A stretch of 64,000 nt of DNA from IMG/VR virus record IMGVR_UViG_3300033145_001156, positions 41,623 to 105,622 of that record. The stretch is one strand, 5' to 3'. This document shows, piece after piece, positions 18,699 through 49,653 of this stretch; position 1 is the first letter of the stretch, and every line of letters starts with the position of its first letter. The DNA comes from a virus. The translations under genes and the position numbers were made by a program. The notes below the pieces were generated by a model. The model was given only the letters and a program-made list of their open reading frames with translations, made no database searches and was not told where the DNA came from.

Positions 18699-18989
18699 AT
18701 GATGAAGTGGCCGGGGATGGGTGAATATGGTGATGTCAATGAGGGAGAGGGGTCGGTTCACCTTCCGTTCACTCAGGTGGATGTGGAGTTCTTTCCGAAA
18801 CTCATGTACGGCTATAGGGGCTACACATGGCCCGACGACCTGTGTCCGCACGTGAAGGACAACAAGATTGAGCGGGTTTTGGTGCTGACCAGCCAAGACG
18901 GCTACACCGGCGCGGGGATATGCCTGGACTGCCTGATGGAGTGGGCGGAGCGGAACCGCAGCAGGATATGGAAGGGAGAAGGCGAGTGA
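18699..18989 (+). CDS. hypothetical protein
   Basis: RBS; CLDC; coupled to the glycosyltransferase. Confidence 0.55.
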   Translation: MMKWPGMGEYGDVNEGEGSVHLPFTQVDVEFFPKLMYGYRGYTWPDDLCPHVKDNKIERVLVLTSQDGYTGAGICLDCLMEWAERNRSRIWKGEGE

Positions 18990-20236
18990 AGAAGGTGGCG
19001 TTCCTGACGACGTTCTTCGAGGTCGAGAGCGGGTATTCCCTGGTGGCGGTGACGGAGACCCAGATCAGGATGCTGTTGGACCACGGGTACGAGCCGGTCG
19101 TCCTGGTGCAGGAGGACTTCAAGCCCCACGGGATGTGGGCCCCGGAGATGCTGGACGTGCGCCCCGTGATCCCCAGATTGAAGCTGACGCAGGGGGTCGC
19201 CAAGGACTTCGAGGAACGAGTGAACAGGATACAGGAGGCGCTGGAGGAGAACCTGGAGGGGGTCGACGTCTGCATCACGCAGGACATCATCCTCCAGGCA
19301 TTCTACAAGGAGCACAACGTGGCCATGAGGCGATACGCCAGGCGGCACGAGCTCCTGTGGCTGCACTGGATACACTCGTGCCCGAGCGCGGGGGACCAGG
19401 GGAAGTACCCCGGCAACTGCCGGTTCACCCCTCCCCCGGGCTACATCGTGTACCCCAACTCGTCCGATAAGTCGCTGGTGGTGGGCGCTTACGGGCTAGG
19501 CGGTCAGGAGTGGCGGGTGAAAGTGAGCAGGGCTGGCCACTCGATAGACCCGATGCTGCTGTGGCCCTACGACGAGCTGACGCGGGACCTCGTCTCCAAG
19601 TTCGCTCTCCACCAGGGGGACGTGTCCGTCGTGTACCCCGCCAGGCTGGACAGGGGGAAGCAGCCCGAGAAGATCATACGGCTGCTGGCGGGGGTCAAGA
19701 AGTTGGGCTACACCCCCAGGCTCCTGGTCATCGACTGGCAGTCGATGGGCAAGAGGTTCCAGAAATACATAGACGAGCTGCTGGAGCTGGCCAGGGAGTT
19801 GGGGCTGGAGGGGGAGGTCGCGTTCACGAGCAGGCTGGACGACAGGTGCTCCCAGGGCGTCCCGAGGAGGATCGTCGTCGAGCTGATGGACTTATCCAAC
19901 GTGTACGTCCACCCCTCTAGGGTCGAGACTTACTCGTTCGTCGTGCATGAGGCCATGCTCAGGGGCTGCCTGTGCGTCCTGAACCACGACCTGCCCATGA
20001 TGCGGGAGCTGTACGGGGACGCGGCGATATACATGGACTTCAGCAGCGACAGAATGAGTCGTAAATATCAGCCCGATGAGCAGTCGTTCTGGGACGACGA
20101 GGCCAAGAGGCTGATGGCTGAGTTGGGGCAGAACAGGGCGCTAGCGGCGAGGCAGAAGGCACGGAAGGAGTGGACGCCCCAGGCACTGTGGAAACAATTC
20201 GAGCCCCTGCTTTTCCTAATACCAGTAGGTGAATAA
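18986..20236 (+). CDS. glycosyltransferase, GT-B fold (GT4-like)
   Basis: PARLDRGKQPE, NVYVHPSRVETYSFVVHEAM (E-x7-E), N-terminal KKVAFLT. Confidence 0.85.
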   Translation: MKKVAFLTTFFEVESGYSLVAVTETQIRMLLDHGYEPVVLVQEDFKPHGMWAPEMLDVRPVIPRLKLTQGVAKDFEERVNRIQEALEENLEGVDVCITQDIILQAFYKEHNVAMRRYARRHELLWLHWIHSCPSAGDQGKYPGNCRFTPPPGYIVYPNSSDKSLVVGAYGLGGQEWRVKVSRAGHSIDPMLLWPYDELTRDLVSKFALHQGDVSVVYPARLDRGKQPEKIIRLLAGVKKLGYTPRLLVIDWQSMGKRFQKYIDELLELARELGLEGEVAFTSRLDDRCSQGVPRRIVVELMDLSNVYVHPSRVETYSFVVHEAMLRGCLCVLNHDLPMMRELYGDAAIYMDFSSDRMSRKYQPDEQSFWDDEAKRLMAELGQNRALAARQKARKEWTPQALWKQFEPLLFLIPVGE

Positions 20237-21597
20237 TGAATATCATTGTTACAGGCACTGGTCGGTGCGGTACAGGATTTATGGCCAGGTGGTTATCTAG
20301 TGCTGGTATCAAATGTACTCACGAAGGAGTGTTTAACACTAAGGGTTGGGACTACGCGCTAGAGCAGATACGGTTGCGGTTGGCCAATCCCTATTGGGGC
20401 TGGCAAGCTGATTCATCATGGCTTGCCGCTCCATGGCTAGGGCAACCAGAGCTTAAAGATATGACTGTGATTCATGTTGTGCGTCATCCCAAGCCAACTA
20501 TAGATTCGTTCTTGCGACTAATTTTGTATGCTAACAACCGACCATATTTTGACTGGGCGGCCCAGTTCCTTCCTAGATTGAGGGAACTAAATCCAGTAGA
20601 TAGTATGGTTTACTGGTATATAACTTTGAACGAGATGATAGAACCATATGCCCACTATCGACATATGGTAGAAGATAGTACCATGTCACTAGAACGGTTC
20701 TTAGGCATAGATATAGAACCTGAGAAGCTCTATAATAATACTCTATACAACACTAGGGCTGGTCTTGGCCCATCAAATATTAGACTAGAAGACATCAACT
20801 CAGAGTTAAGAGATAAGCTACTAGCCATGACAGACAAATATGGATACGAATGGGATGATGCTTTTGTACCCGAGACCATAGAGGCTACGTGGTGGGCAGG
20901 ACAATCTATATTACTAGATTCAAGATCAGGCTACCTTGGTGGTTCTTGGCAGTGGCGTGACACTAACGGAAAACCATTAGCCTATGATGGTGATCTCGTT
21001 AAGTTCTTCTATGAACAAACACTCTCAGTGGAACACCCATTCGTAGTAGACGTTGGGGCTAGCACGGGTAGCTTTACCCTGTTACCCTTGTTACATCCAA
21101 CAATGAATGTCTTGGCATTTGAACCTAACCCTATGGCATTTAGTGTGTTAGAGAGCAATATTAAATTGCATAACCTTCAAGATAGAACATCGCTGTGTCA
21201 AATAGCACTATCAGATACTAATGGAACAGGAACACTAAAGGTTCCCGAAGGCAGCACCCATATGGCTATTGGATGTTTGGGATCGCCAAGGCCACGCGGA
21301 CTTGAATGGTATGATGTGCCTGTGGAAATCAAAAGTCTAGATAGCTATAACCTCCCAGTATTAGATTTCCTTAAGATTGATACCGAGGGAAATGAACTGA
21401 ATGTTTTGAAGGGTGGCGAGGTTACAATTAAAAGGTTCTTGCCATCAATATTGCTAGAATATCAAGCACTTAATACTAGACAGTTTGGGTACGAGCCTGA
21501 GAAGATAATTGAGTTGCTAGAAAGCTGGGGTTATGACCATTTTGAACACGTAGGGATAGAGGACATCTATGTTAGTTGCGATCATAACGACTCTTGA
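20236..21597 (+). CDS. fusion of a sulfotransferase-like P-loop domain and an FkbM-family methyltransferase
   Basis: IIVTGTGRCGT, THE, HVVRHP..TIDS; then VDVGASTG, AFEPNP, FLKIDTEGNE. Confidence 0.8.
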   Translation: MNIIVTGTGRCGTGFMARWLSSAGIKCTHEGVFNTKGWDYALEQIRLRLANPYWGWQADSSWLAAPWLGQPELKDMTVIHVVRHPKPTIDSFLRLILYANNRPYFDWAAQFLPRLRELNPVDSMVYWYITLNEMIEPYAHYRHMVEDSTMSLERFLGIDIEPEKLYNNTLYNTRAGLGPSNIRLEDINSELRDKLLAMTDKYGYEWDDAFVPETIEATWWAGQSILLDSRSGYLGGSWQWRDTNGKPLAYDGDLVKFFYEQTLSVEHPFVVDVGASTGSFTLLPLLHPTMNVLAFEPNPMAFSVLESNIKLHNLQDRTSLCQIALSDTNGTGTLKVPEGSTHMAIGCLGSPRPRGLEWYDVPVEIKSLDSYNLPVLDFLKIDTEGNELNVLKGGEVTIKRFLPSILLEYQALNTRQFGYEPEKIIELLESWGYDHFEHVGIEDIYVSCDHNDS

Positions 21598-22741
21598 CAA
21601 CCTGCCCTTGCTGAAGGAGCAGATCCTCGTCCTGCGGAGCGACCCGTTCGTGGACGAGATCGTGGTAGTCAGCAATGGTTCTAATGATGGAACTAATGAA
21701 TGGTTAAAGGAGCAAGATATTATTTCTGTTATTAGGGAGAACGACGGGGCCGGGCCTGGCAGGAACGCTGGTCTTGATATGGCAGGAGAGTTCGACTACG
21801 TGCTCATGCTCGACGGCGGGATCAGGCCGCTGGTGAACGGGACGGGGCACATGCTGGACTACCTGGAGAGGCACCCCGGGGTCGACGTCCTCGGGCTGGA
21901 GGTCCCGCACTTCGAGACCGACAGGGGGAGGGCGTGGCGTAGGTGGCCTAGGCCAATAACTGACGACCAGACGTACAGGCACAGCCATCTAAGCCTCACG
22001 GCGTATTGCCTCTCGCGGGCGCGCGCGTGGGACGGGCTGAGGTTCAGCGAGGAGGGGCCGTTCGGGGAGCCCGGGTGGGGCGTGGACGATGACGAGATGG
22101 CCTGCCAATGGGCCGAGGCGGGGATAGTCCTGTACTCAGTAACTAACATCCACCCCTACAGGCGGGGGTCGGGCAGCTTCAGGAGGCTGTTCCTGGAGAC
22201 GGGCGTCTGGCCGAACCAGTACGGATCGGTATACGAGAAGAGGCTGGTCTGGATGCAGCAGAACTGGCCGCAGTACGGGCGGGGGGTGCAATGGGGAGAA
22301 CCCTGGCTTACCATCGTCGTCAAGGTCGGGGAACTGGAGGGGACGGCCAGGATCATCAAGCGCGCGCACAACATGCTGAGGAGGAGGGCGTTCGGGGAGC
22401 CGTGGGACGCCATCCCGAACCCGTACAGCATCGTGGCGTGGGACCCGACCGAGGAGTTCACGGAGTGGGCCGAGCCGAGGCGGCTGAGGCAGCACCACGG
22501 CGACAGGATCATCGTGGACGGCAGGATCGTCAGGAGGGCGACGGAGAGCGGGGAGGTCTGGACGGGCGACTTCAGGGTGTGGAAAGGAGAAGATTGGAAG
22601 GGGGCTGTGAGGCCCAACGCTCACTACCATGCATTGGTGACCAGTGAGGGAGGGTTGGAGCAGGTGCTGAAGCGATACAGTGAGATTTATCCCAGGCAGG
22701 AGAAGAACGTTTCCCCTGAAGCGAGAGAAGAGGTTGGCTAA
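21569..22741 (+). CDS. glycosyltransferase, GT-A fold (GT2-like) with C-terminal extension
   Basis: EIVVVSNGSNDGT, GPGRNAGL, YVLMLDG, GWGVDDDE. Confidence 0.85.
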   Translation: MLVAIITTLDNLPLLKEQILVLRSDPFVDEIVVVSNGSNDGTNEWLKEQDIISVIRENDGAGPGRNAGLDMAGEFDYVLMLDGGIRPLVNGTGHMLDYLERHPGVDVLGLEVPHFETDRGRAWRRWPRPITDDQTYRHSHLSLTAYCLSRARAWDGLRFSEEGPFGEPGWGVDDDEMACQWAEAGIVLYSVTNIHPYRRGSGSFRRLFLETGVWPNQYGSVYEKRLVWMQQNWPQYGRGVQWGEPWLTIVVKVGELEGTARIIKRAHNMLRRRAFGEPWDAIPNPYSIVAWDPTEEFTEWAEPRRLRQHHGDRIIVDGRIVRRATESGEVWTGDFRVWKGEDWKGAVRPNAHYHALVTSEGGLEQVLKRYSEIYPRQEKNVSPEAREEVG

Positions 22742-25700
22742 GAAGCATTTTCTGGCAGGGAGTTCAGGAGCATCCTCTAAATTTGAGTGGAATGAAGAAT
22801 GGCGTGAAATCTCAGCCAGGCGTACTCGCACGTCTAAGACAAAACACCTTCATATCAATGGAAGTCCTACTGGGAAATATGGTTGGCATGGAACCATTGG
22901 TTCAATTCACTATCAGGACGAACAAGGCGATTGGCAAGAGATTGATGCAACGTTACGGCGCATCAATAACCCCCAGCTTGATGGCTGGCTAGTTACCCAA
23001 AACGGCTGGCACTTTGCCCTGGGTAAGCCAGGTGATAAAGACGATGATGGTTGGATAGGCTTCGGTGGTAGACAGGGGGCCAACTGGCTGAAATTCCGTT
23101 TGGATAAAGTCGGCTATCTTCATTGGCCGACTAGAGACTGGCAGGATATTGGCGGTGGTCCAACCCACGACCGTGGCAAGCTCACCCAGCATACTAATAC
23201 CATGACAATCGGGCCAGAAGGAGCCGAGTCCAGTGTCAAAACCACGGGTTATGCTGAATGGACTGACCTTTGGCAAACACCAGACAATGGCGCTATTTCA
23301 GTCAAATGGCGAGTGGACGGAGAAAAGCTCAAAGAGGCTGTTACCGTTAGCCAGACGGCAAGAGAGTGGATTACAAAAAACAGACCTCCTGACACAACCC
23401 CAAGTGAAACTTACTTCGGCTTTGTCTATGAGCTTGATGTAAGCGACATCCCTAAATGGGTTAAGGGCGGTGTTTTACAAGACATTGATGCTGACTTTGA
23501 TGACGATAATAGCACAGCCAGGGTTGAACTACGCGACGCTATGGATAGGCTATTGGCCTTTCTGCCCGTCTCCTACGCTTATAGCCAAGAAGATGAACGT
23601 GGTTACCGAGAGCGCGTTGCCTTGCGCAAGCGGTTCTGGAAAGCTCCTAATGGCAAGCACTACCTCTTGGTAGGTGCGCTCGTTCCTAACTTGGCGAATC
23701 TGCCTGCTGGCGACATCATCTTCGACCCTAGCCCCTACTCAAGTGACGACCCGACAGAGGATGGATTCATTAAATATGAAAGTGGGCCAACCTATACTAG
23801 AGATAATACAGCTGATTATCTTAGATTTGGTGGTTATGGTGAATATACCATGTTTCCAACATGGTATTTTGACTACCGTGCTTATGTTGAGTGGAATATA
23901 ACTGCTCTAGCTGGAGCTACTCTGACGACGAATCCGACATTCAAGTATCAAGGAACGTTTGATAGGACCCTTAATGAAGAGATAAACCCGATTTCAAGTC
24001 AGCCAAGTGAAGCGGAAGATGCAGACCTATACGCTGACATTGCAAGTGGTACAGCTTATGTGGACCCTTGGAACTTTGCTGTTGGCACAGGGCAAGAAGA
24101 TGATTTGGGTTCTTCGGCCAAAACAGACCTCCAAAATGCTATTGATGCTTCACAGTCATGGTTCGCAATTGGTTTACAGGACCCGGTTGCCGAGGGAACG
24201 GGCGATGATGACCTTTCGAGTCGACTTTACTCCGAGAATAAGGACCCCGCCGCCGATCCGCCGCCAACGCTGTATGTAGAGTATGAAGAAGGTTCTTCAT
24301 CATCTTCATCGAGTTCTAGCTCTAGTACCTCCTCAAGCAGCACATCATCAAGTTCTACGTCAAGCTCATCTACCAGCTCAAGCTCTACTTCGTCCTCAAG
24401 CACCAGCTCATCCTCAACTTCGAGTTCCAGCACGAGTAGTAGCATCTCATCATCATCAACGTCGAGTTCTTCTACGTCATCCAGTTCGACATCCAGCAGC
24501 TCAACTTCTTCAAGCTCAACGAGCAGCTCAAGCACGTCTTCAAGTTCAACATCATCGTCAACATCAAGTAGTTCAACTTCTAGCTCTTCGACATCAAGCT
24601 CATCTACGAGCAGCAGCTCTACATCGTCTAGCAGCACGTCCAGTTCATCCACAAGTTCAAGCACGAGTTCATCTTCAACATCCAGCAGCAGTACCTCATC
24701 TTCCAGCACGTCTAGTTCATCAACGAGCTCTTCATCAACATCATCATCAAGCATATCTAGTAGTAGCACTTCGTCAAGCTCTACATCTTCTTCTAGCACA
24801 AGTTCAAGTTCTACATCCAGTTCAAGTACCAGCTCGACGTCATCGAGCACCAGTTCTTCCTCGACGAGCAGCAGTAGTATTAGCTCAAGTAGCACGTCCA
24901 GTTCAAGTACGTCTAGCAGTTCCACGTCTTCTTCGTCAACGAGTTCCACCTCGTCAAGTTCTACTTCTTCGAGTAGCAGCACTTCTTCGTCATCGACCAG
25001 CAGCAGTTCGACATCAAGTAGTTCCACCAGCTCGTCGTCCACGTCCAGCAGCACTTCGAGTTCGTCAACCAGTTCATCCAGCACGTCCAGCTCATCTACG
25101 TCGAGTAGCTCAACGAGCACCTCAAGCAGCAGCACATCCAGCTCATCGACAAGCTCTTCGACGAGTAGCAGCTCAACCTCCTCATCGTCAACGAGTTCTA
25201 GTTCAACCTCGTCGAGTTCCACGAGTTCGTCAACATCGAGCAGCAGCACTTCCTCAAGTTCCACATCTTCTTCGTCGACTAGCTCAAGCAGCACGTCTTC
25301 GAGTTCGACTTCGTCTAGTTCCACTTCGAGCACGAGTAGCAGCTCGACATCGTCTTCGAGCACGTCAAGTTCCTCGACAAGCTCAAGCTCCACGTCTAGC
25401 AGCAGCACTTCAAGCAGTTCTACATCAAGCACGAGTTCGAGCAGCACCTCGTCATCATCGACGAGTTCATCTTCAACCAGCAGCAGCACTTCGTCAAGCT
25501 CCACGTCCAGCTCTTCAACGTCATCCTCATCGACTTCAAGTTCCAGTACTTCATCATCCTCAACGTCCTCTAGCTCTACCAGTAGTACGAGTTCAAGCAG
25601 CACGTCGTCTACTTCGAGTAGTAGCACTTCCAGTTCCAGCACAAGCTCATCTTCGACGTCTAGCAGCTCTACTTCCTCTAGTTCTACATCGAGCAGCAGT

Positions 25701-26273
25701 ACATCTAGTAGTTCCACGTCGTCATCATCTACCAGCTCGTCTACAAGTTCCAGCAGCACATCGTCTAGCAGCACGAGTTCATCTTCCACATCAAGCAGCA
25801 CATCGTCGTCCTCTACGTCATCTAGCAGCACTTCCAGTTCGTCAACGAGTAGCACATCAAGCTCAAGTACAAGCAGTAGTTCAACAAGTTCAAGCAGTAC
25901 TTCATCATCTTCAACTTCCAGCTCCAGCACAAGTTCATCCTCCACGAGTAGCAGTTCCACATCATCAAGTACTTCGTCAAGTTCGACTTCAAGCGGCACG
26001 AGTTCATCTAGCACCAGTTCGTCATCCACCAGCATAAGCAGTTCAAGCTCAAGTTCGTCGTCGTCGTCAAGCAGTTCGAGCTCCTCGTACTCGGTGCCGC
26101 CGATGGAGTGCACGGCGCTGGATGTGGTGTGCGGCGCAACGACGATAACGGCGGTTGACGGTTGCGAGGGACCGATCACGACATGCATGTGCAGCGCAAC
26201 GGCGGTTGACGGTTGTGAGGGACCGATCGTGACATGCGCGTCCGGCGAGATAGAGGTAGAAGTATACGAGTAA
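22734..26273 (+). CDS. large putative virion protein: N-terminal beta-rich globular domains, ~598-aa Ser/Thr (SSSST)n tract, Cys-rich C-terminus
   Basis: Uninterrupted ORF; TTG start after GAAGAGG; IHYQD..GDWQEID..L and IIFDP motifs like WapA/RHS N-termini, followed by a DNRLRE-like segment. Confidence 0.85.
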   Translation: MAKKHFLAGSSGASSKFEWNEEWREISARRTRTSKTKHLHINGSPTGKYGWHGTIGSIHYQDEQGDWQEIDATLRRINNPQLDGWLVTQNGWHFALGKPGDKDDDGWIGFGGRQGANWLKFRLDKVGYLHWPTRDWQDIGGGPTHDRGKLTQHTNTMTIGPEGAESSVKTTGYAEWTDLWQTPDNGAISVKWRVDGEKLKEAVTVSQTAREWITKNRPPDTTPSETYFGFVYELDVSDIPKWVKGGVLQDIDADFDDDNSTARVELRDAMDRLLAFLPVSYAYSQEDERGYRERVALRKRFWKAPNGKHYLLVGALVPNLANLPAGDIIFDPSPYSSDDPTEDGFIKYESGPTYTRDNTADYLRFGGYGEYTMFPTWYFDYRAYVEWNITALAGATLTTNPTFKYQGTFDRTLNEEINPISSQPSEAEDADLYADIASGTAYVDPWNFAVGTGQEDDLGSSAKTDLQNAIDASQSWFAIGLQDPVAEGTGDDDLSSRLYSENKDPAADPPPTLYVEYEEGSSSSSSSSSSSTSSSSTSSSSTSSSSTSSSSTSSSSTSSSSTSSSSTSSSISSSSTSSSSTSSSSTSSSSTSSSSTSSSSTSSSSTSSSTSSSSTSSSSTSSSSTSSSSTSSSSTSSSSTSSSTSSSSTSSSSTSSSSTSSSSTSSSSTSSSSISSSSTSSSSTSSSSTSSSSTSSSSTSSTSSSTSSSSTSSSSISSSSTSSSSTSSSSTSSSSTSSTSSSSTSSSSSTSSSSTSSSSTSSSSTSSSSTSSSTSSSSTSSSSTSSSSTSSSSTSTSSSSTSSSSTSSSTSSSSTSSSSTSSSSTSSSSTSSSTSSSSTSSSSTSSSSTSSSSTSSSSTSSSSTSSTSSSSTSSSSTSSSSTSSSSTSSSSTSSSSTSSTSSSSTSSSSTSSSSTSSSTSSSSTSSSSTSSSSTSSSSTSSSSTSSSSTSSTSSSSTSSTSSSSTSSSSTSSSSTSSSSTSSSSTSSSSTSSSSTSSSSTSSSTSSSSTSSSSTSSSSTSSSTSSSSTSSSSTSSSSTSSTSSSSTSSSSTSSSSTSSSSTSSSSTSSSSTSSSSTSSSTSSSSTSSGTSSSSTSSSSTSISSSSSSSSSSSSSSSSSYSVPPMECTALDVVCGATTITAVDGCEGPITTCMCSATAVDGCEGPIVTCASGEIEVEVYE
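24294..26087 (+). repeat. low-complexity Ser/Thr pentapeptide repeat, codon-diversified
   Basis: 598 codons almost all Ser/Thr; all six Ser codons used, so not a perfect DNA tandem repeat. Confidence 0.95.
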
Positions 26274-26283: not shown

Positions 26284-26568
26284 GTGGCGCAATACAGTGT
26301 AGGGGATTTGGTGAATTGCAGGGCCACGTTCACCGAGGGCGGGGTCGACGTGGACCCGATGACCATCGAGATGCACGTCCGGGTGCCGGACGGGACGGTG
26401 GACATCTACACACATGCTGGCGGGACCGTCACCCGGACAGCGGTGGGGGTCTACGAGTCAGAGTTCGAGGTCACCCAGTTCGGTGTCTACCACTACAAGT
26501 GGGTGTCGACCGGACCGGGTCAGGCCGCCGCCGAGATGGGGTTCCAGACGTTCTACACATCGTTCTGA
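26284..26568 (+). CDS. small beta-sandwich-like putative virion protein
   Basis: AAGGAGG RBS; VTRTAVGVY...GVYHYKW pattern. Confidence 0.6.
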   Translation: MAQYSVGDLVNCRATFTEGGVDVDPMTIEMHVRVPDGTVDIYTHAGGTVTRTAVGVYESEFEVTQFGVYHYKWVSTGPGQAAAEMGFQTFYTSF

Positions 26569-26623: not shown

Positions 26624-28198
26624 GTGATCATGGGGATCAGGGAGAAGTTGGCTGGCAGGATAGCGCCGGACCTAGTGGCGACGATAGGTACGCAGTCAGA
26701 ACTATTGGAGTCGCAGGGCCAGCAGATAGAGTGGCTGGCGAGAGAAGCAGCTAGAAACAGCAAGTTGCGTGAGCGATTAGCAAGCTGGGAGCTCTTTGAA
26801 GAAGATATTGGGTGGGAGAGGCTGGGGCCCAGCGGCGACCTAGACATGCCGGAGAGCACGAGGCAGTTCAAGGTGAGGCGGTCGCGGATCCTCTACAGGA
26901 GCGACCCGAACGCGCTGAGGATCGTCCAGCTCTACACCGACTACGTGGTGGGGGACGGGCTGTCGATCAAGGCCGCGAACGAGGACGTCCAGGTGATAGT
27001 GGACTTGTTCCTGGGCGACAGGAAGAACAAGAAGCTGTTCAGCTCGCAGGGGCAGCGGGGATTCTCCAACAGGCTGCTGGTGGACGGGGAGACGTTCCCC
27101 GTCTACTTCCGCCCGACGGGGAAGAAGCGGGACGGTATCATCAAGGTCAGGCGGGTGTCCTCCCTGCAGATCGTCGAGATACTGACCGACCCGGAGGACG
27201 AGCTGACCCCGCTGTGGTACCTGAGGCAGTGGAACGAGGGGGCCGAGACCAAGCACCTGTGGTACGCCGACAGGGACGCCACGGGCGAGGACTTGAAGAA
27301 GGTCGAAGAGTTCAGGGGGTACGAGCAGTCCGGCCTGAATGTGAGGATGTCGCAGGTGGTGTTCCACGCGCTGGGGACGAGGGGGCAGGGCTTGCTGTTC
27401 ACCATCCTGGACTGGCTGAACGAGTTCAAGCTGTTCATGGAGAGGCGGGCGACCATCATGGCCGCGCTGGCCCTGTTCGCGTGGAAGACGAAGACGACCG
27501 GGACCCCCAAGGAGGCCGAGCTGCTGAAGGCCATGTGGGGCACGGAGATAGACGACGTGAGGATGCCGCCCGCCTTCGCGGGGGCGAGGCTGATAGAGAC
27601 CGAGGGGGCGGACACCGTCCCGATCAAGACTGACACCGGGGCGTCCGCCGCGCAGGTGGACGGCACGATGCTGTTCCAGCAGATATGCGTGGGGTCGGGG
27701 ATACCCCCGCACATGCTCGCGCGCGGGGAGTACTGGAGGATGGCGACGGCCACCGCCCTCGACTGGACGCTGGAGAGGCAGTTCAAGGCGTACCAGTCCC
27801 TGCTGAGGGGATACTACAACGACGCAGTGCGCTACCAGCTGGAGTTCTCCGCCAACGCAGGCGCGAAGATGCCGAAGGACGAGGCCGAGTGGGCGCTCGA
27901 CCTGGACTTCCCGCCGCTGACCAGGGAGAAGACGAAGGACATGCTGGAGGCGCTGGCGATAGGCAGCGAGCTGGGGGTCCCCGCCGACGAGATCCTGTAC
28001 AAGGCGCTGGTGGCGCTGGGGGTCGACAACCCGTCCGACATCGTGCAGCAGATGGAGAAGGGCGAGGTGGAAGAGGCCGAGGCCGCCATCGCGGGGTCGA
28101 TCGAGGGCCGCGAGGAGGAGATCATCGAGTCGCTGACGCACTTCGCCAGGATGCTGAGGGACGACAGCATGATGGAGGCGTCCCTGGAGGAAGATTAG
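26624..28198 (+). CDS. portal protein
   Basis: 524 aa; RIVQLYTDYVVGDG, LLVDGETF, GSGIPPHML, LDFPP; position in head module. Confidence 0.85.
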   Translation: MIMGIREKLAGRIAPDLVATIGTQSELLESQGQQIEWLAREAARNSKLRERLASWELFEEDIGWERLGPSGDLDMPESTRQFKVRRSRILYRSDPNALRIVQLYTDYVVGDGLSIKAANEDVQVIVDLFLGDRKNKKLFSSQGQRGFSNRLLVDGETFPVYFRPTGKKRDGIIKVRRVSSLQIVEILTDPEDELTPLWYLRQWNEGAETKHLWYADRDATGEDLKKVEEFRGYEQSGLNVRMSQVVFHALGTRGQGLLFTILDWLNEFKLFMERRATIMAALALFAWKTKTTGTPKEAELLKAMWGTEIDDVRMPPAFAGARLIETEGADTVPIKTDTGASAAQVDGTMLFQQICVGSGIPPHMLARGEYWRMATATALDWTLERQFKAYQSLLRGYYNDAVRYQLEFSANAGAKMPKDEAEWALDLDFPPLTREKTKDMLEALAIGSELGVPADEILYKALVALGVDNPSDIVQQMEKGEVEEAEAAIAGSIEGREEEIIESLTHFARMLRDDSMMEASLEED

Positions 28199-33742: not shown

Positions 33743-33752
33743 GGAGGTGGAC

Positions 33753-42434: not shown

Positions 42435-42871
42435 TGGCTAGGAGCGGACTTCTAAAGGGCGTTCGCCCAACCACATTATTGAAGAATCAGCTCTATGAGC
42501 TGGAATTGCTGCATTTTTGCACGATCCAGGTCGCAACGGAAGGTGCAGACGACGGGTTCGGGCAACCGATGCTGGCCTGGGAGGACGAGACCACCGACGT
42601 TCACTGCCGGCTGAACTGGCGGTCGGTGAACGAGCAGTTGTGGCAGTTCGAGGGAGTCGTCGCCGACTACAAGCTATTCGTGGACATTGACGTGATAGTT
42701 CCCGAGACTAGGCAGATAGTTGACGTTACTGATAAGGATGGGAACTTGATAGACGCTGGGCCATTCGATATCATAAGCACCCAGAGATTCGATATGGGCC
42801 CAGACACGGGACAGCACCATAAAGAGTTGCTGCTGAAGAGGGCTGCGAGGTCGGGAAGGGGCAAGGGATGA
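42434..42871 (+). CDS. head closure / head-tail joining protein
   Basis: CTIQ....DDGFGQP...W....TDVHCRL, HHKE.LL. Confidence 0.7.
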   Translation: MARSGLLKGVRPTTLLKNQLYELELLHFCTIQVATEGADDGFGQPMLAWEDETTDVHCRLNWRSVNEQLWQFEGVVADYKLFVDIDVIVPETRQIVDVTDKDGNLIDAGPFDIISTQRFDMGPDTGQHHKELLLKRAARSGRGKG

Positions 42872-43698
42872 GGATCCTGGTGACGGGTGACGCCGGTTGG
42901 CTCGGCGGGCACATCTCCAACCATCTGGAGGGCGAGGGGCACGTGGTCGTCGGTTTCGACCTCCTGCCGGGCGACAGGATGGTCGGCGACCTCGTTGACT
43001 TGAAGCCCGAGCACCTAGAGGGGATCGAGGCGGTCGTCCACTGCGCGGCCATCGGTGACGTGTACGTGGCGAACAGGAACCCCGCACTGGCGTTCAAGGC
43101 GTCGGCTGAGGGCACGGCGGCCCTGGTGGCGGCCTGCCCAGAGGACCTGAGGGTGTTCGTCCACATCAGCACGTGGGAGGTCTACGGGCCTCATTCTCCT
43201 CACATCGAGGTCTTGGAGACGTCCCAGTGCAGGCCGGAGCACCCCTATGCCGCCGCGAAGCGCGCTGGGGAACTGGCGCTGGTGAGCACGATCAGGACGC
43301 CGTGGCGCATCCTGAGGCTGGGGAGCGCGTACGGGCACGGGATGAGGGAGAGCTCGCTAATCTCCAGGTTCATCGAGAAGATGAGGAGCGGGGAGCCGCT
43401 GACCATTCACGACGACGGGAAGCAGTTCAGGCAGTGGGTGTGGACGGGGGACATGTGCAGAGCAGTCAGTTCAGCACTGGGGGATGTCCCGAACGGGGTG
43501 TACAACGTCGTCGGGAGCGAGGCTGTCACCGTGCTGGGGCTAGCGGAGATGCTGGGCGGAGAGATCGTCCACCAGGAGCGGAGGAAGTCAGAAACGCCGT
43601 GCTACCTGGTGTCGGGGGCCAAGGCGAAGTTCTGGCTCAGGTGGGAGCCGGAGAAGGGATTCAAGGAAGGGGTGGCAGAGATTGTACGGAGCACGTGA
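42868..43698 (+). CDS. NAD-dependent sugar epimerase/dehydratase (extended SDR)
   Basis: ILVTGDAGWLG, HISTWEVYG, YAAAK catalytic motif. Confidence 0.9.
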   Translation: MRILVTGDAGWLGGHISNHLEGEGHVVVGFDLLPGDRMVGDLVDLKPEHLEGIEAVVHCAAIGDVYVANRNPALAFKASAEGTAALVAACPEDLRVFVHISTWEVYGPHSPHIEVLETSQCRPEHPYAAAKRAGELALVSTIRTPWRILRLGSAYGHGMRESSLISRFIEKMRSGEPLTIHDDGKQFRQWVWTGDMCRAVSSALGDVPNGVYNVVGSEAVTVLGLAEMLGGEIVHQERRKSETPCYLVSGAKAKFWLRWEPEKGFKEGVAEIVRST

Positions 43699-44218
43699 CC
43701 CGGGGAAGCACAGGGAGTCCCTCGTGAGGCTGGTGAGGGAGTCCGGCGCAAGGAACATCGCGGAGGTGGGCGTCTACAAGTGCGCGACCTCGCTGGCGGT
43801 CCTGATGAACTGCGACGTGGACAGGTACTACATGGTCGACCCCTGGAGGGACTACTGGGACTCCGGGGACGGGGAGGCGGACCGGGGCTCCCCGAAGGAC
43901 GTGGACTGGGAGGCCCTGTTCAAGGGTGCACTGGAAGTGGAGCAGCGGTTCACCGTGGCGGAAGTCTTGAGGCTCCCGTCGGTCAGCGCGGCGAAGATGT
44001 TCTACCCCGGGGAGCTGGACCTGGTGTTCATAGACGGCGACCACTCCTACGAGGGTGCGAGGGCGGACATAGAAGCGTGGACACCGGCGGTGAAGGAGGG
44101 CGGGATCCTGTCGGGGCACGACTACTACACGAGGTGGCCGGGAGTCGTCAGGGCGGTCGACGAGGCGTTCGGAGACTTGCACTTCATGAAAGACACGGTG
44201 TGGTGGACTCAATTATAG
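43682..44218 (+). CDS. class I SAM methyltransferase (Methyltransf_24-like)
   Basis: AEVGVY, VDPW, DLVFIDGDHSYE, GGILSGHDY. Confidence 0.85.
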   Translation: MYGARDPGKHRESLVRLVRESGARNIAEVGVYKCATSLAVLMNCDVDRYYMVDPWRDYWDSGDGEADRGSPKDVDWEALFKGALEVEQRFTVAEVLRLPSVSAAKMFYPGELDLVFIDGDHSYEGARADIEAWTPAVKEGGILSGHDYYTRWPGVVRAVDEAFGDLHFMKDTVWWTQL

Positions 44219-44841
44219 TCTACACGGCGATAATAGGCGACATAGACGACCTGTTGCCAACGAGGACAGGAGGGGTAGCATGGGTTGATGTCCGAAAAAG
44301 AAGAAGCCCAGGGTGGGCGATAAGGCAAGCAAGAAGGCAGTTGACAGACCCGAGAAGGGAGTCTCGGCTGTACAAGATACTGAGCCACCAGTGGATACCG
44401 GGGACGAGCATCTGGATAGACGGGACGATCCAGTTGAAGGTGAGTCCAAGGGAGTTGGCGCAGTACCTTGGGGAGAATGACATGGCGGCGTTCCGGCACC
44501 CGTCGAACGACTGCGCCCTGAGGGAGGCCGAGATAGTCGCCAGGGTGGGGAAGGCGACCGAAGAAGCGTTGAGGCAGGCCGAGAGGTACAGGGAGGCCGG
44601 ATTCCCGGAGCACCACGGGATGATGGCTTGCGGGGTTCTGATCCGCAGGCACACCGAGGCAGTAGAACGATTCAACGACATGTGGTGGAGCGAGTATTGT
44701 CGAGGATGCGTCAGGGACCAAGTGAGCTTCAACTATGTGTTGTGGAAGTTGGACATGAAGTGCAGCGTGATTCCGGGTGACTCGTACAACAACAGGTTCA
44801 TACGAAAGGTGTCACATGTCAAACCGACGGGTTACGGCTAG
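44200..44841 (+). CDS. DUF616/MUCI70-like glycosyltransferase
   Basis: VYTAIIG..D.L, KILSH, SIWIDG, FRHP..DC..EA, RDQVSF.YVLW. Confidence 0.75.
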   Translation: MVDSIIVYTAIIGDIDDLLPTRTGGVAWVDVRKRRSPGWAIRQARRQLTDPRRESRLYKILSHQWIPGTSIWIDGTIQLKVSPRELAQYLGENDMAAFRHPSNDCALREAEIVARVGKATEEALRQAERYREAGFPEHHGMMACGVLIRRHTEAVERFNDMWWSEYCRGCVRDQVSFNYVLWKLDMKCSVIPGDSYNNRFIRKVSHVKPTGYG

Positions 44842-45577
44842 GGAAGTATTTTGCCAGGTTCAGGGGCACATGACGACCGGAGAGGGATACTCGGTCATCC
44901 GGCTGGGCGACGGGGAGTGCCGGTTGATGGGCTGGCCCGACAGGACCCCGAGGAGGGAACTCCAGCAATCATTGAGGTACTGGTTCGGGCATACGGACTT
45001 CAGCCGGGAAGACGTGGACGCGATGGCGAACCTCCTGAGGCAGGCGATAGCGGTTGCCGACGTGGTGGGGGTCCCGGGCAAGGAGCAGCTGGCTGACGGG
45101 CGCAAGGGCTGGGCGAACGTGGAGAGGTACCTGGACGAATATCATCTGCTGGACGAGGACGCGTGGCTGTGCGACAACGAGCTGCACATCCGGATGGCCG
45201 AGCAGGGGCTGTACGAGGAGCTGCTGCTGGGACTCCCTGACATTAGCATCATCACTTGCAGGGACGTCGGGTTCCTGATGGAGTCGTTCTTCAGGATCGG
45301 GGCGGTCACAGTCTACGAGGTTCCTGCCGAGGCGCAGACAGCCGGGTGGAAGCCGACGAGCCACTGGCCGGACAGGTTCGACGAGTTGTACAAGGAGGTC
45401 GAGGTCACGTATCCTGGCCAACTGTTCCTGGTAGCCGCCGGGCCGCTGGGCAAGGTGTACTGCCAGTGGGTGAAGGAGCGGGGCGGGGTGGCCCTGGATG
45501 CAGGCTCGATCTTAGATGGCTGGGTCGGGATACGGAGCAGGACGTACCTCAAGGAGAGGGACTACTCGCTATGCTGA
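44816..45577 (+). CDS. GT-D-fold-like glycosyltransferase
   Basis: SVIRLGDGE motif, ADVVG, LVAAGPLGK, ALDAGS..D. Confidence 0.65.
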   Translation: MSNRRVTAREVFCQVQGHMTTGEGYSVIRLGDGECRLMGWPDRTPRRELQQSLRYWFGHTDFSREDVDAMANLLRQAIAVADVVGVPGKEQLADGRKGWANVERYLDEYHLLDEDAWLCDNELHIRMAEQGLYEELLLGLPDISIITCRDVGFLMESFFRIGAVTVYEVPAEAQTAGWKPTSHWPDRFDELYKEVEVTYPGQLFLVAAGPLGKVYCQWVKERGGVALDAGSILDGWVGIRSRTYLKERDYSLC

Positions 45578-46209
45578 AGGTGTCGGTGGACCTGGACAAG
45601 TGGTTGGATGAGTACCCGTGGTACCGGGACGTGCTGGACGTCCTCGACGACTACCAGGAGGGGCCTGAGACGGCTGCCCTCTGGACGCCGTGGAAGGGCG
45701 GGCTGTGGATGAAGGAGCGGGTCTGCGAGATCGCGGAAGTGTGCGCGGAGAGGTTCCCTGGGGACTTCATCGAGATCGGGGCCTACCTGGGGCAGACCAC
45801 GAGGGGGCTGGCGGAGGTGGCCAGGGAGCACGACCGGCGGGTGGTGGTGATAGACCCGTGGGACCCGGACTCGCTGTGTTGCCAGGGCTGGGAGTACAAC
45901 GTGTTCCTGCGCAGCATCAGGGGGTACTCGGACATCATAGACGTCTACCGGCTGTCTTCGTTCGAGGACGAAGCCATCGAGATCATCGAGGGCAGGGAGC
46001 TCGCGTTCGCGTTCGTGGACGGGCTGCACATCTACGAGGCGGCGCTGTCGGACATCAAGGCATGCGCGCACTGCCATGGGGTCATAGCCGTGGACGACCT
46101 GCCGAACTGCATTGACGTGTGGGACGCGTTCATGGAGGGCGTCGAGGTGACTAGGAGGGTTCCGTTGTGGAGGAAGTATCATCGTGAAGGCTATCTATTG
46201 CCACGTTGA
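45571..46209 (+). CDS. class I SAM methyltransferase
   Basis: IEIGAYLG.TT, IDPW, FAFVDGLH.YE, VDD. Confidence 0.8.
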   Translation: MLKVSVDLDKWLDEYPWYRDVLDVLDDYQEGPETAALWTPWKGGLWMKERVCEIAEVCAERFPGDFIEIGAYLGQTTRGLAEVAREHDRRVVVIDPWDPDSLCCQGWEYNVFLRSIRGYSDIIDVYRLSSFEDEAIEIIEGRELAFAFVDGLHIYEAALSDIKACAHCHGVIAVDDLPNCIDVWDAFMEGVEVTRRVPLWRKYHREGYLLPR

Positions 46210-46786
46210 ACCGCCGGAAGTTGACATCATAATACCAACGCTGAATTTCAGGGCAGCATTAGACAACTATCACGGTTGGCCCGATCCTGGCGTGGAAACT
46301 TGGTGGTTGACAGTCATGGTAGATGAAAAACAAGAAGGGTTCACTCGGACAGTCAACCGTGGACTTGCCGAGACGAAGTCTCCGTACATCTGTATTATAG
46401 GGGACGACGCGGTCCCAGAGACCGAGGGTTGGCTGTTAGAACTGAGGAAGGCGCTGGAGGAGGGGTACGGGTTCGCGTTCCCGACCATGCCTTGCAGGAC
46501 GGCTCCCATATCGAAGGCGAGGAGGGCGTCCCCGACAGGGCAGTTGGTGGAGATACCCCACGGGCCTTACGGGTGCGTCCTGATGAAGAGAGAAGTCTTG
46601 GGGGAGGTCGGGCTGCTGGACGAGGCGTTCGCGCACTACGGGTCGGATGTTGACCACCAGAGGCGATCTAGTTTCAAGTCGGTGTGGGTTGCGCACGTGT
46701 ACGTCCGCAGGGAGCTGCACGAGCCGAGGGAACCCTGGTGGACGGAGGACGGGATAAAATTCCGTGAAAGGTGGGGAGATCGATGA
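46184..46786 (+). CDS. glycosyltransferase GT2-like
   Basis: VDIIIPT, GFTRTVNRGL, IGDDA, VGLLDEAF.HYGSDVD. Confidence 0.85.
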   Translation: MKAIYCHVEPPEVDIIIPTLNFRAALDNYHGWPDPGVETWWLTVMVDEKQEGFTRTVNRGLAETKSPYICIIGDDAVPETEGWLLELRKALEEGYGFAFPTMPCRTAPISKARRASPTGQLVEIPHGPYGCVLMKREVLGEVGLLDEAFAHYGSDVDHQRRSSFKSVWVAHVYVRRELHEPREPWWTEDGIKFRERWGDR

Positions 46787-46937
46787 GATGTTATCTGAGA
46801 GGCACGTCATAGTTGGGGTTGCTGAACACGGTACTAGGATGTCTTGTCAATCGTGTGCTCATCAAGGTATGTGACAGCAACACCAAGAAAATCGTAGGTT
46901 GGCGGTGGGGCAAGGCAACAGATTTTCCTAGGAAAGC

Positions 46938-47774: not shown

Positions 47775-48345
47775 AGAATATCCGGTAGGGGTTGCCTACC
47801 AAGAAGGCCCAGGTCACACGGGGCTTGCTGGTATGCATGGGGGGAGTGATCCTGGGTTAGGTTCTATAGGTGGACCAAGCGGCGGTCCACCAGCTACGGA
47901 AGAACAAACCAATTATGTTAAGAGACTACTTTTCAAACAATCAGATACGGAAATGATGCAATCTCTAGGTTCTGGCCAACGTTTGGAGAATGGTTTTCTC
48001 TACTACAAGACTATGGATAAGCGTCCTGAGGGGTTTTGGGATTTGTCGCGTAGGGAAGCGGGAAAAGCAGGGGTTGTACTTGGTGCACGTTATATAAAAT
48101 GGCGGAATTCGATAGATGTTTCAAAAATGAGCAAAGCACAAGCATCCACTTTTTTGGATTCAGCAACTAACCGTTTAGGTGGTTCGCTACAGGGATTTGT
48201 CAGATTGCAAACAGGAGGAAGTCGACAAAGTACCGATAGGTATTTTCAAGGGTTAGTGAATGAAACGCGAACTTATATAAAGAAGTATCCTGATGGTGAG
48301 GAAATGAGAAAGGCTCTTGGAAAAAGTTATGGGTTCGGTAGATGA
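47767..48345 (+). CDS. hypothetical protein with YPVGVAYQE leader (candidate internal capsid protein)
   Basis: AAGGAG RBS; AT-rich; Gly-rich GHTG..G.HGGS segment. Confidence 0.6.
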   Translation: MDKEYPVGVAYQEGPGHTGLAGMHGGSDPGLGSIGGPSGGPPATEEQTNYVKRLLFKQSDTEMMQSLGSGQRLENGFLYYKTMDKRPEGFWDLSRREAGKAGVVLGARYIKWRNSIDVSKMSKAQASTFLDSATNRLGGSLQGFVRLQTGGSRQSTDRYFQGLVNETRTYIKKYPDGEEMRKALGKSYGFGR

Positions 48346-48492
48346 GTCAAGTCACCGCAGTTCACAGGGCATACTACACGAAGGTGAAGGGTTGGGCGAA
48401 AAACACGTACTGCGGATGTTATAATTGTCTGCTGACTTGTGGGAGCGCAACTTGTTCAGCTTTCACGAGGGCGGCTGGCTGAGGAGGGCGAG

Positions 48493-48966: not shown

Positions 48967-48974
48967 GAGGGGAG

Positions 48975-49609: not shown

Positions 49610-49653
49610 TATTATCATACCTATAAGTGTAGACAATTCAAGAGGAGGGATAT

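What the first reader, a model, noticed from the sequence alone, without database searches (positions are those of the whole stretch)
22734..26273. Mucin-like protein: globular head, 598-codon (SSSST)n stalk, Cys-rich repeated C-terminus
Seen: 24294-26087 encodes almost only Ser and Thr (a few Ile, one Gly) with about 5-residue periodicity. All six Ser codons are shuffled, so the DNA is not a slippage-type tandem repeat; this points to selection on the protein while avoiding recombinational collapse. The C-terminus has 7 Cys and a 51-nt-period duplication (26147-26186 and 26198-26237, TAVDGCEGPI.TC). No signal peptide or transmembrane helix is visible. The N-terminal ~520 aa resemble WapA/RHS N-terminal and DNRLRE-like beta domains. 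Inference: a virion-anchored flexible fibre presenting an adhesin at the end of a stalk that could exceed 100 nm if glycosylated, anchored via the C-terminus and the small downstream protein 26284..26568.
Basis: partly seen in the sequence, partly recalled or inferred. Interest (0 to 1): 0.8.

Follow-up and report, generated by a model that had tools for sequence, protein, structure and literature searches.

The report
Phage mucin-like stalk protein with glycosyltransferases
An uncultivated 105-kb tailed phage encodes a protein with a sugar-binding head, a 598-residue serine/threonine stalk and a tiny cysteine-rich end; the neighbouring sugar-adding enzymes accompany such stalks in three other phages, so it is probably a sugar-coated tether, but this is untested.

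Summary
ORF 22734..26273 (+) holds a 520-aa folded N-terminus, a 598-codon tract (S476 T117 I4 G1, five-residue period), and a 61-aa end with 7 Cys and a 37/40-nt internal duplication. The DNA is not a tandem repeat.

- The head is a galactose-mutarotase-like beta-supersandwich plus a CBM96/DNRLRE-type jelly roll. It is not WapA/RHS.
- It belongs to a large family (536 representatives) found almost only in uncultivated phages.
- Among 35 non-redundant loci, all 4 with the upstream GT1 homologue have a Ser/Thr tract right after the CBM96-like domain; 0 of 31 others do. These four are scattered on the head-domain tree.
- In one relative the same head and poly-Ser tract are fused to the N-terminus of a tail protein (Sipho_Gp37). 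This supports virion display with the head distal.
- GC3 is mosaic: head and tract 0.35-0.49, C-terminus 0.71, core genes 0.84-0.92. The head is 81% identical to a signal-peptide protein whose nearest named relative is from Patescibacteria.
- Evidence for selection on codon scrambling is weak.

Glycosylation, virion location and the anchor are all inferred. I class it as a new variant of known kinds: phage virion glycosylation, SRRP-like adhesins and polyserine linkers. First readers of this scan noted the same stretch in overlapping windows.

The parts
18920..20236 (+). GT1: GT-B-type glycosyltransferase (Pfam Glycos_transf_1), GC3 0.87. The conserved upstream partner of the stalk gene.
   Evidence: PF00534 4.4e-10. 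Homologues of 72% and 61% identity lie upstream of the head gene in L004 and L022, and one is also present in L037. GC3.
20236..21597 (+). FkbM-family methyltransferase with an unassigned 260-aa N-terminal part. Compositionally foreign (GC3 0.38-0.40).
   Evidence: PF05050 1.2e-18, phrog_8156. GC3. No sulfotransferase model hit at E <= 0.5.
21569..22741 (+). GT2: GT-A-type glycosyltransferase, GC3 0.82.
   Evidence: PF00535 4.5e-9. Homologues of 48-54% identity sit directly upstream of the head gene in L004 and L022.
22734..26273 (+). The whole mucin-like protein gene (1179 aa from the TTG at 22734).
22797..23741 (+). Conserved head domain 1 (aa about 22-336): galactose-mutarotase-like beta-supersandwich.
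   Evidence: 536 representative homologues. AF2 pLDDT mostly above 90 here. VIA Z 11-11.5 to LacZ domain 5, GH38 and mutarotases.
23754..24293 (+). Head domain 2 (aa about 341-520): CBM96/DNRLRE-like jelly roll, ending in a P-x-L-x-V-E-Y motif.
   Evidence: 8wab Z 12.2, 7vbo Z 10.2. Foldseek probability 1.00 to 8wab. Homologues carry PF24517/NF033679 at the same position. The direct HMM hit on this protein itself is absent.
24294..26087 (+). 598-codon (SSSST)n tract; candidate O-glycosylated stalk.
26088..26273 (+). 61-aa Cys-rich C-terminal module (three C-x6-C units plus one further Cys) and the stop codon, GC3 0.71. It contains a 51-nt-period duplication (26147-26186 / 26198-26237).
   Evidence: 37/40 nt. 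No homologue found. GC3.
26284..26568 (+). p94: small Ig-like beta-sandwich protein with a strong AAGGAGG ribosome-binding site. A recurrent downstream partner of the head gene.
   Evidence: phrog_17896 1.8e-5. Homologues lie directly after the head gene in L023 and L026 and nearby in L071. AF2 pLDDT 87 with filamin/MG2-like matches at Z <= 8.7.
26624..28198 (+). Portal protein (context: the gene sits between terminase and portal).
   Evidence: phrog_10963 6.3e-32. TerL at 12242-13795.
42868..51083 (+). Second glycan-building cluster inside the structural module: epimerase, TOD1/MUCI70-like, GT-D-like, methyltransferase, GT2, GT4 (context).

Best explanation
The gene encodes a modular phage protein made in the cytoplasm, since it has no signal peptide. 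Its N-terminal 520 aa form a carbohydrate-binding-type head: a mutarotase-like supersandwich plus a CBM96-like jelly roll. The head is joined by a 598-residue (SSSST)n tract to a 61-aa Cys-rich C-terminal module.

I infer the following, none of it shown:
- The adjacent GT1 (GT-B) and GT2 (GT-A) O-glycosylate the tract from nucleotide sugars, and the FkbM methyltransferase caps the glycan. This would turn a floppy linker into an extended, protease-resistant bottle-brush stalk.
- The protein is carried on the virion, held by its C-terminal module, possibly with the Ig-like p94.
- The head therefore samples host surface polysaccharide far from the particle, as a first reversible attachment step.

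GT1, GT2, head and Ser/Thr tract together behave as a mobile cassette that different phages have placed at different virion positions. In this phage the head, and perhaps the tract, were recently swapped in from a low-GC source close to secreted Patescibacteria-type proteins.
For: **Shown**
- Anatomy and composition.
- Fold assignments.
- CBM96/DNRLRE hits in homologues at the same position.
- The gene lies in the morphogenesis module: TerL, then GT1-MT-GT2-gene-p94-portal, then protease, major capsid protein, major tail protein.
- GT1 and GT2 homologues precede the head gene in L004 and L022; L037 has the GT1 homologue only.
- The tract follows the (V/I)EY end of the CBM96-like domain in all four GT1 loci but differs in kind. 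It is (SSSST)n of 598 aa here, 55 aa of poly-Ser in L022, TTTT plus at least 35 Ser in L004, and (T6-7LAP)n in L037.
- Among 35 non-redundant scorable loci, GT1-positive loci have a tract in 4 of 4 cases and GT1-negative loci in 0 of 31 (Fisher 1.9e-5). The four lie apart on the head tree, and all 4 independent contrasts agree.
- In L022 the order is tape measure, Dit-like protein, GT1, GT2, then head-polySer fused to Sipho_Gp37 (PF14594 2.9e-22; phrog_538 3.1e-34).
- No other ORF of the 105.6-kb genome has a Ser/Thr-rich segment.
- The phage carries at least seven further glycan genes inside its structural module, including a GT-D-like one.
- GC3 mosaic: head 0.48/0.35, tract 0.485, C-terminal module 0.71, p94 0.84, portal 0.92.
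- The head groups (support 99) with P0151 (81% identity) and P0001. P0151 starts with a signal-peptide-like sequence; P0001 has a lipoprotein-like N-terminus and is named Patescibacteria by NCBI.

**From the literature**
- Phage-encoded GTs glycosylate mycobacteriophage capsid and tail-tube C-termini (Freeman 2023, as cited in PMC12619734).
Against: - There is no direct evidence of glycosylation, of presence in virions, or of which end is attached.
- The sign test on independent contrasts cannot go below p 0.125 with four pairs.
- The four GT-plus-tract loci could share one ancestral cassette whose head was later exchanged. The association would then be one event maintained, not four gains.
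- L019/L054 has a roughly 510-aa Ser/Pro-rich stalk with no GT1 homologue on its 10-kb contig.
- In most phage fibres the conserved N-terminus is the virion anchor, which is the opposite polarity.
- The C-terminal module has no homologue and could not be modelled.
- The GTs could instead serve capsid or tail proteins, or host surface conversion (GT2 hits phrog_841, GtrB-like).
- CBM96 membership of this protein rests on fold and on homologues, not on a direct HMM hit.
Confidence: 0.55

Rival explanations
1. The tract is a plain flexible polyserine linker that is not glycosylated, like the linkers joining CBMs to other modules in CAZymes of Saccharophagus, Teredinibacter and Cellvibrio. The neighbouring GTs would act on other targets, such as capsid or tail subunits as in mycobacteriophages, or the host envelope.
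For: - The tract follows a CBM-type domain and is 80% Ser, as in polyserine linkers (PMC2699552).
- GT2 hits a GtrB-like O-antigen conversion PHROG.
- The phage has a second large glycan cluster that needs other substrates or builds a complex glycan.
- L019/L054 has a Ser/Pro stalk without a GT1 homologue.
Against: - GT1 and the Ser/Thr tract co-occur exactly (4/4 vs 0/31) across head lineages and across tract types, including a poly-Thr form.
- The tract is about 14 times longer than average polyserine linkers (39-44 aa).
- It keeps a Thr every fifth residue in 98 of 122 spacings.
- No other Ser/Thr-rich segment exists in the genome.
Confidence: 0.2
2. The polarity is reversed. The conserved N-terminal head docks on the virion near the portal or neck, as fibre N-termini usually do. 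The stalk would then project the small Cys-rich module, or simply form a glycan brush that shields the particle.
For: - In the family the N-terminal roughly 330 aa are conserved and the C-terminal parts are highly variable: repeats, beta-helix, LamG, malectin. This is the usual pattern of anchor plus receptor-binding end.
- The gene lies beside the portal here and within a few kb of it in L003, L019 and L025.
Against: - In L022 the C-terminal part is a complete tail-protein domain that must itself be built into the tail, leaving the head free.
- Close homologues are secreted cellular proteins with signal peptides, where no virion exists to dock on.
- The head has carbohydrate-binding-type folds.
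- The head has foreign GC3 while the C-terminal module is native-like.
Confidence: 0.12
3. It is not a virion component. It would be a soluble protein released at lysis, or acting inside the cell. For example it could bind or cleave extracellular polysaccharide for progeny escape or biofilm penetration, or serve as a glycan-coated decoy.
For: - There is no recognisable virion-attachment domain and the C-terminal module is an orphan.
- Supersandwich domains of this type are catalytic in some polysaccharide lyases and fucanases, which appear among the fold matches at Z 9-10.
- The head is strongly conserved, with invariant W, R and D residues.
Against: - The position inside the structural module.
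- The fusion to a tail protein in L022.
- The recurrent Ig-like partner gene.
- A 598-aa tether is hard to explain for a free enzyme.
Confidence: 0.13

Closest known systems
Serine-rich repeat adhesins (SRRPs: GspB, Fap1, SraP) of Gram-positive bacteria, with their GtfA/GtfB and GT-D glycosyltransferases
   Same: - A ligand-binding region is held on a very long Ser-rich stalk.
- Dedicated cytoplasmic GT-B, GT-A and GT-D-type glycosyltransferases are encoded nearby (GT-B and GT-A adjacent; GT-D-like at 44777-45577).
- The C-terminus serves as the presumed attachment end.
   Different: - No signal peptide, no accessory Sec genes and no LPXTG motif.
- The repeat is SSSST, not S-x dipeptides.
- The binding region is at the extreme N-terminus, with no short SRR1.
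- The setting is a phage morphogenesis operon.
- The SRRP details here are from my own knowledge. Homology of GT1 to GtfA was not tested.
Virion glycosylation in mycobacteriophages (Che8, Corndog, Myrna; Freeman et al. 2023, cited in PMC12619734)
   Same: Phage-encoded glycosyltransferases sit among structural genes and modify virion proteins.
   Different: In those phages the glycans sit on short C-terminal ends of the major capsid and tail-tube subunits. Here the candidate substrate is a dedicated 598-residue tract on a separate lectin-like protein. The capsid and tail-tube C-termini of this phage are not Ser/Thr-rich.
Polyserine linkers of carbohydrate-active enzymes (Saccharophagus, Teredinibacter, Cellvibrio; PMC2699552)
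   Same: A tract of about 80% Ser directly joins a carbohydrate-binding module to the next module. All Ser codons are used.
   Different: - Those linkers average 39-44 residues; this tract is 598.
- This tract has a regular Thr every fifth residue.
- It is linked to glycosyltransferase genes.
- It is phage-borne.
CBM96 / DNRLRE domain (alginate- and chondroitin-sulfate-binding modules; PDB 7vbo, 8wab; PMC9971899)
   Same: The second head domain has the same jelly-roll fold (Z 12.2 and 10.2). Homologues hit PF24517/NF033679.
   Different: This protein itself does not reach either HMM threshold, and its ligand is unknown.
CBM-decorated ('evolved') Dit and Tal tail-tip proteins of siphophages
   Same: Carbohydrate-binding modules are appended to tail-tip proteins for host glycan recognition. 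The L022 relative is exactly of this type (head fused to Sipho_Gp37).
   Different: In the window's phage the module is a separate gene next to the portal. It has a huge stalk and an orphan C-terminal module. The Dit/Tal comparison is from my own knowledge.

Membership tests
CBM96 / DNRLRE domain (PF24517, NF033679) | Sequence match to the family HMM above the curated cut-off | tested here: not met
   No hit for aa 1-520 in Pfam (E <= 0.01) or NCBIfam (E <= 0.1). Homologues P0004, P0005, P0008, P0019, P0059 and others do hit at the equivalent position.
CBM96 / DNRLRE domain (PF24517, NF033679) | Jelly-roll fold of solved CBM96 modules | tested here: met
   8wab_B: Z 12.2, rmsd 4.2, 169 of 176 residues aligned. 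7vbo_A: Z 10.2, 157 of 182 aligned. Foldseek probability 1.00, TMt 0.57. The model pLDDT in this domain is mixed, 41-93 per block.
CBM96 / DNRLRE domain (PF24517, NF033679) | Binding of an acidic polysaccharide | not testable with these tools
   Needs a binding assay.
Galactose-mutarotase-like beta-supersandwich | Fold match covering the domain | tested here: met
   About 200-215 residues aligned at Z 10-11.5 to LacZ domain 5, GH38 and aldose epimerases. This is only moderately above the background Z of 7-8. A shared fold does not show function.
Serine-rich repeat adhesins (SRRP) | N-terminal signal peptide for the accessory Sec system, and a C-terminal LPXTG anchor | tested here: not met
   Read directly from the sequence: no hydrophobic N-terminus. 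The C-terminus ends in an acidic beta-like EIEVEVYE with no LPXTG.
Serine-rich repeat adhesins (SRRP) | Long Ser-rich repeat region with adjacent dedicated glycosyltransferases | tested here: met
   A 598-aa tract. GT-B and GT-A genes lie directly upstream. A GT-D-like gene lies in the same structural module.
Polyserine linker of CAZymes | A tract of about 80% Ser between a CBM and another module | tested here: met
   79.6% Ser, following the CBM96-like domain. The length is about 14 times the reported averages.
WapA / RHS N-terminal region | Match to RHS/YD or WapA models | tested here: not met
   No such family in Pfam, NCBIfam or PHROGs. The fold matches are of a different kind.
Phage virion glycosylation system (mycobacteriophage type) | Phage GT genes inside the structural operon | tested here: met
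   GT1 and GT2 lie between TerL and portal. A second cluster lies between the head and tail genes.
Phage virion glycosylation system (mycobacteriophage type) | Glycans demonstrated on virion proteins | not testable with these tools
   Needs mass spectrometry of particles.

The most novel reading that the evidence does not exclude
Uncultivated phages carry a self-contained, mobile mucin cassette: a GT-B and GT-A pair, a lectin-like head, and a Ser/Thr stalk of freely variable length and sequence type.
- The cassette can be plugged onto different virion anchors. It sits on the tail-tip protein in L022 and on an orphan Cys-rich module next to the portal here.
- Its lectin head is exchanged with secreted surface proteins of Patescibacteria-like cells (81% identity).
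- This would mean that phages and ultra-small episymbionts draw on one pool of host-surface adhesins. It would also mean that bacteriophage particles can wear 100-nm-scale O-glycosylated fibres comparable to mimivirus fibrils or bacterial SRRPs.
Probability: 0.3. Interest if true: 0.8.

Novelty: new variant of a known kind. Interest (0 to 1): 0.6.

Why it matters
Protein glycosylation of bacteriophage particles has only recently been shown, and only as short decorations on capsid and tail-tube ends. A dedicated substrate protein with a 598-residue stalk and its own enzymes would be a much larger investment. It would suggest that phages build extended glycan-coated fibres for reach, protease resistance or shielding.

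The GT-plus-Ser/Thr-tract association across four phage lineages gives a concrete, cheap test: co-expression followed by mass spectrometry. It also offers a source of new protein O-glycosyltransferases with a simple acceptor.

The near-identity of the head to secreted Patescibacteria-type proteins hints at adhesin sharing between phages and episymbiotic bacteria. It may also give a handle on the unknown host.

Tried and rejected
- **WapA/RHS.** No model hit in Pfam, NCBIfam or PHROGs.
- **Slippage-type repeat.** Rejected.
- **Strong selection for codon scrambling.** Not shown.
  - Codon order equals a random shuffle.
  - The Ser codon mix differs from native high-GC3 genes (chi2 94) but not from the foreign head part (p 0.32). 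The flat usage may therefore just reflect origin at GC3 of about 0.5.
  - Only the lag-5 deficit and a weak position-specific bias remain.
- **Minus-strand 653-aa and +2-frame 584-aa ORFs across the tract.** I read these as mirror images of low-complexity coding sequence. The + frame is continuous with a domain that has 536 homologues.
- **C-terminal module.** No homologue among longer proteins. The Atlas search was blank. No paralogue in the genome or in the 97 loci.
- **p94.** The word-based homologue search found only itself. Its fold is a generic Ig-like sandwich.
- **PDB by sequence or profile.** Nothing.
- **Cultured phages (INPHARED).** Only a 136-aa match of the CBM96-like part to a Nitrosopumilaceae spindle-shaped virus ORF.
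- **Single-sequence scan of viral contigs.** Nothing.
- **Species genomes.** One hit among 185,579 species, on a phage-like contig of a Pirellulales MAG.
- **Sulfotransferase-like N-domain of the methyltransferase.** Not detected by Pfam at E <= 0.5.
- **Papers.** Howard 2004 and Freeman 2023 are not held. They are cited only through papers that cite them.
Full report
**Setting**

The window is bases 41623-105622 of a 105,622-bp IMG/VR virus record with direct terminal repeats, rated complete. The gene order is that of a siphovirus-like tailed phage:
- TerL at 12242-13795;
- GT1 (18920-20236), an FkbM methyltransferase fusion (20236-21597) and GT2 (21569-22741);
- the ORF in question (22734-26273), then a 94-aa protein (26284-26568) and the portal (26624-28198);
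- an HslV-like peptidase, the head maturation protease (33734-35419) and the major capsid protein (36863-38038);
- a second glycan cluster (42868-51083: epimerase, TOD1/MUCI70-like, GT-D-like, methyltransferase, GT2, GT4);
- the major tail protein (51088-51636), a 1712-aa ORF in the tape-measure position (assigned by size and position only) and distal tail genes.

No tRNA gene is present. No cultured phage is close; the portal is at most 30% identical to those of actinophages and Methanoculleus viruses.

- The ORF is open from 22680. The TTG at 22734 behind a purine-rich stretch is the likelier start.
- Codons 24294-26087 encode S476, T117, I4 and G1. A non-Ser residue falls every fifth position in 98 of 122 spacings.
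- Tandem Repeats Finder sees no array. The longest exact repeat is 18 nt, against 19.2 +/- 2.1 in synonymous shuffles.
- The last 61 aa carry 7 Cys arranged as three C-x6-C units plus one. They include a 17-codon duplication that is 37/40 nt identical.
- There is no signal peptide.

- Ser codon entropy is 2.52 of 2.585 bits. That is flatter than in the phage's high-GC3 core genes (2.29 bits; chi2 94, p 8e-19). It is not distinguishable from the head-coding part of the same gene (p 0.32).
- GC3 is strikingly mosaic: GT1 0.87, methyltransferase 0.38-0.40, GT2 0.82, head domain 1 0.48, head domain 2 0.35, tract 0.485, C-terminal module 0.71, p94 0.84, portal 0.92, major capsid protein 0.89.
- The flat codon use may therefore reflect a foreign, mid-GC origin rather than selection.
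- Codon order is random apart from two signals. There is a modest deficit of identical codons between in-register neighbours (lag 5: 0.156 vs 0.198, z -2.5, one-sided P 0.0045, eight lags tested). There is also a weak position-specific bias (p 0.0017).
- An ascertainment caveat applies. In two relatives (L004, L037) the tract contains 54- and 38-nt exact repeats and the contig ends inside it. The 55-aa tract of L022 is scrambled and assembled. The window's tract has no repeat above 18 nt, so mis-assembly is unlikely, but read mapping was not possible.

**What the head is**

- The first 520 aa have 536 representative homologues at E <= 1e-3. None is named beyond 'hypothetical protein'.
- Only one of 185,579 species genomes has it, on a phage-like contig of a Pirellulales MAG. 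No GenBank phage carries domain 1.
- An AF2 model built on 53 sequences has pLDDT 80.7 and pTM 0.80.
- Residues about 55-336 align to galactose-mutarotase-like supersandwiches: LacZ domain 5, GH38, aldose epimerases, YidC P1 (Z 10-11.5, about 200-215 residues).
- Residues about 340-518 align to solved CBM96 modules (8wab Z 12.2 with 169/176 aligned; 7vbo Z 10.2).
- Many homologues hit PF24517 (CBM96), PF06848 or NF033679 (DNRLRE) at that position. This protein itself does not.
- CBM96 was defined on an alginate-binding module (PMC9971899).
- The WapA/RHS recall is not supported.

**Family architecture**

The head pair is always N-terminal. What follows it varies:
- nothing but a short basic tail;
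- long Ala/Ser/Thr-rich pseudo-repeats;
- beta-helix, LamG, malectin, Ig or PKD modules.

Some members begin with signal peptides or a lipoprotein-like signal (P0004, P0151, P0001), so they are secreted cellular proteins.

On a tree of head domain 1, the window's copy groups (support 99) with P0151 (81% identity) and P0001, which NCBI names Patescibacteria group bacterium. Phage copies are 40-52% identical. Together with the low GC3, this points to a recent exchange of the head between this phage and such cells. The direction is unknown.

**The link to glycosyltransferases**

I used tblastn with the window's proteins against 97 fetched loci. Homologues of GT1 (61-72% identity), and mostly of GT2, lie directly upstream of the head gene in L004, L022 (= L069) and L037. 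In exactly these loci the CBM96-like domain's (V/I)EY end is followed by a hydroxy-amino-acid tract:

| Locus | Tract | Note |
|---|---|---|
| Window | (SSSST)n, 598 aa | assembled through |
| L022 | about 55 aa poly-Ser, ending in the same SVPP junction as here | assembled through |
| L004 | TTTT plus at least 35 Ser | contig ends in the tract |
| L037 | (T6-7LAP)n | contig ends in the tract |

- Of 35 non-redundant loci where both traits can be scored, 4 of 4 GT1-positive loci have a tract and 0 of 31 GT1-negative loci do (Fisher 1.9e-5, ignoring relatedness).
- The four are scattered on the head tree. All four independent contrasts agree, although four pairs cannot reach p < 0.125.
- An exception of a different kind is L019/L054. 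It has a roughly 510-aa Ser/Pro-rich stalk and no GT1 homologue on its 10-kb contig.
- L004 carries a triple-GT fusion in place of GT2.
- No other ORF of this genome has a Ser/Thr-rich segment, and the capsid and tail-tube C-termini are ordinary.
- I infer that the tract is the acceptor of these enzymes. This is not shown.

**Virion association and polarity**

In L022 the order is tape measure, Dit-like minor tail protein, GT1, GT2, and then one 938-aa ORF. That ORF is head, poly-Ser, and a complete Sipho_Gp37 / phrog_538 minor tail protein. There the head must hang from the tail tip by its C-terminal partner.

In the window, the C-terminal 61 aa are the only part of the gene with native-like codon usage. 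This fits a resident anchor onto which a foreign head and stalk were recombined. That is inference.

The 94-aa downstream protein has homologues directly after the head gene in L023 and L026 and nearby in L071. It models as an Ig-like sandwich (pLDDT 87; filamin/MG2-type matches, Z <= 8.7, generic). Small beta-rich ORFs of other families follow the gene in several other loci. A partnership is plausible, but its nature is open.

**Comparison with known systems**

- It works most like a serine-rich repeat adhesin: a binding region on a long glycosylated Ser stalk, cytoplasmic GT-B, GT-A and GT-D enzymes, and a C-terminal anchor. It lacks every export and anchoring feature of that family.
- It resembles polyserine linkers of CAZymes (average 39-44 aa; PMC2699552) but is about 14 times longer, is periodic, and is GT-linked.
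- It extends the known phage virion glycosylation (capsid and tail-tube ends in mycobacteriophages; Freeman 2023, cited in PMC12619734) to a dedicated mucin-like substrate.
- Literature searches for phage mucin-like or Ser-rich glycosylated fibres found nothing closer.

**Stalk length (inference from general mucin physics)**

If extended at about 0.25 nm per residue, the stalk would span about 150 nm. Unglycosylated, it would be a coil of a few tens of nm.

**Verdict**

My main reading is a glycosylated, virion-borne tether carrying a glycan-binding head, anchored by the C-terminus, at confidence 0.55. It is a new variant of known kinds, and interest is 0.6.

Noticed in passing
window 20236-21597: The FkbM methyltransferase fusion has GC3 0.38-0.40 and sits between GT1 (0.87) and GT2 (0.82). 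It looks like a recent insertion into an older GT pair. Relatives L004 and L022 have no homologue of it between their GTs.
   Followed up: partly
window 42868-51083: A second glycan cluster lies inside the structural module: NAD-dependent epimerase, TOD1/MUCI70-like, GT-D-like (PF22882 1.3e-10 at 44777-45577), methyltransferase, GT2, GT4. The phage has at least seven glycan-building genes in all.
   Followed up: partly
P0001 (homologue, NCBI MBU1130489.1), aa about 585-730: The Patescibacteria homologue appears to carry an intein-like (Hint) insertion inside its second head domain. It starts with a Cys-Phe-Val motif typical of an intein N-terminus, but only a weak NCBIfam hint supports this (E 0.098).
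   Followed up: no
L004:5572-7992: In this relative the gene between GT1 and the head gene is an 806-aa fusion of two GT2 domains and a GT1-like C-terminal domain.
   Followed up: no
L026 (Pirellulales MAG contig CAYNKU010000003.1): This is the only hit in 185,579 species genomes, and the contig looks phage-like. It has an HNH endonuclease, a GT2-like gene directly upstream, a 2102-aa head-family protein and a p94 homologue. It is probably a phage contig binned with the MAG, or a prophage.
   Followed up: partly
L003:9761-10030, L074:8145-8453: In other phages the head-family gene is followed by a different small beta-rich protein family (phrog_4137, C-terminal part). This suggests that a small partner gene of varying family is common after this gene.
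   Followed up: partly
window 39018-39707, 39708-40916 and 61995-63674: Further carbohydrate-binding-type proteins are present. A LamG protein and a weak beta-helix protein lie after the capsid gene, and a LamG plus CBM_4_9 minor tail protein lies at the tail end.
   Followed up: no
contig names: Several family members come from contigs labelled Hain-H14-01um, and from sediment or groundwater-type sample series. These settings are rich in Patescibacteria. This is only a hint about habitat.
   Followed up: no
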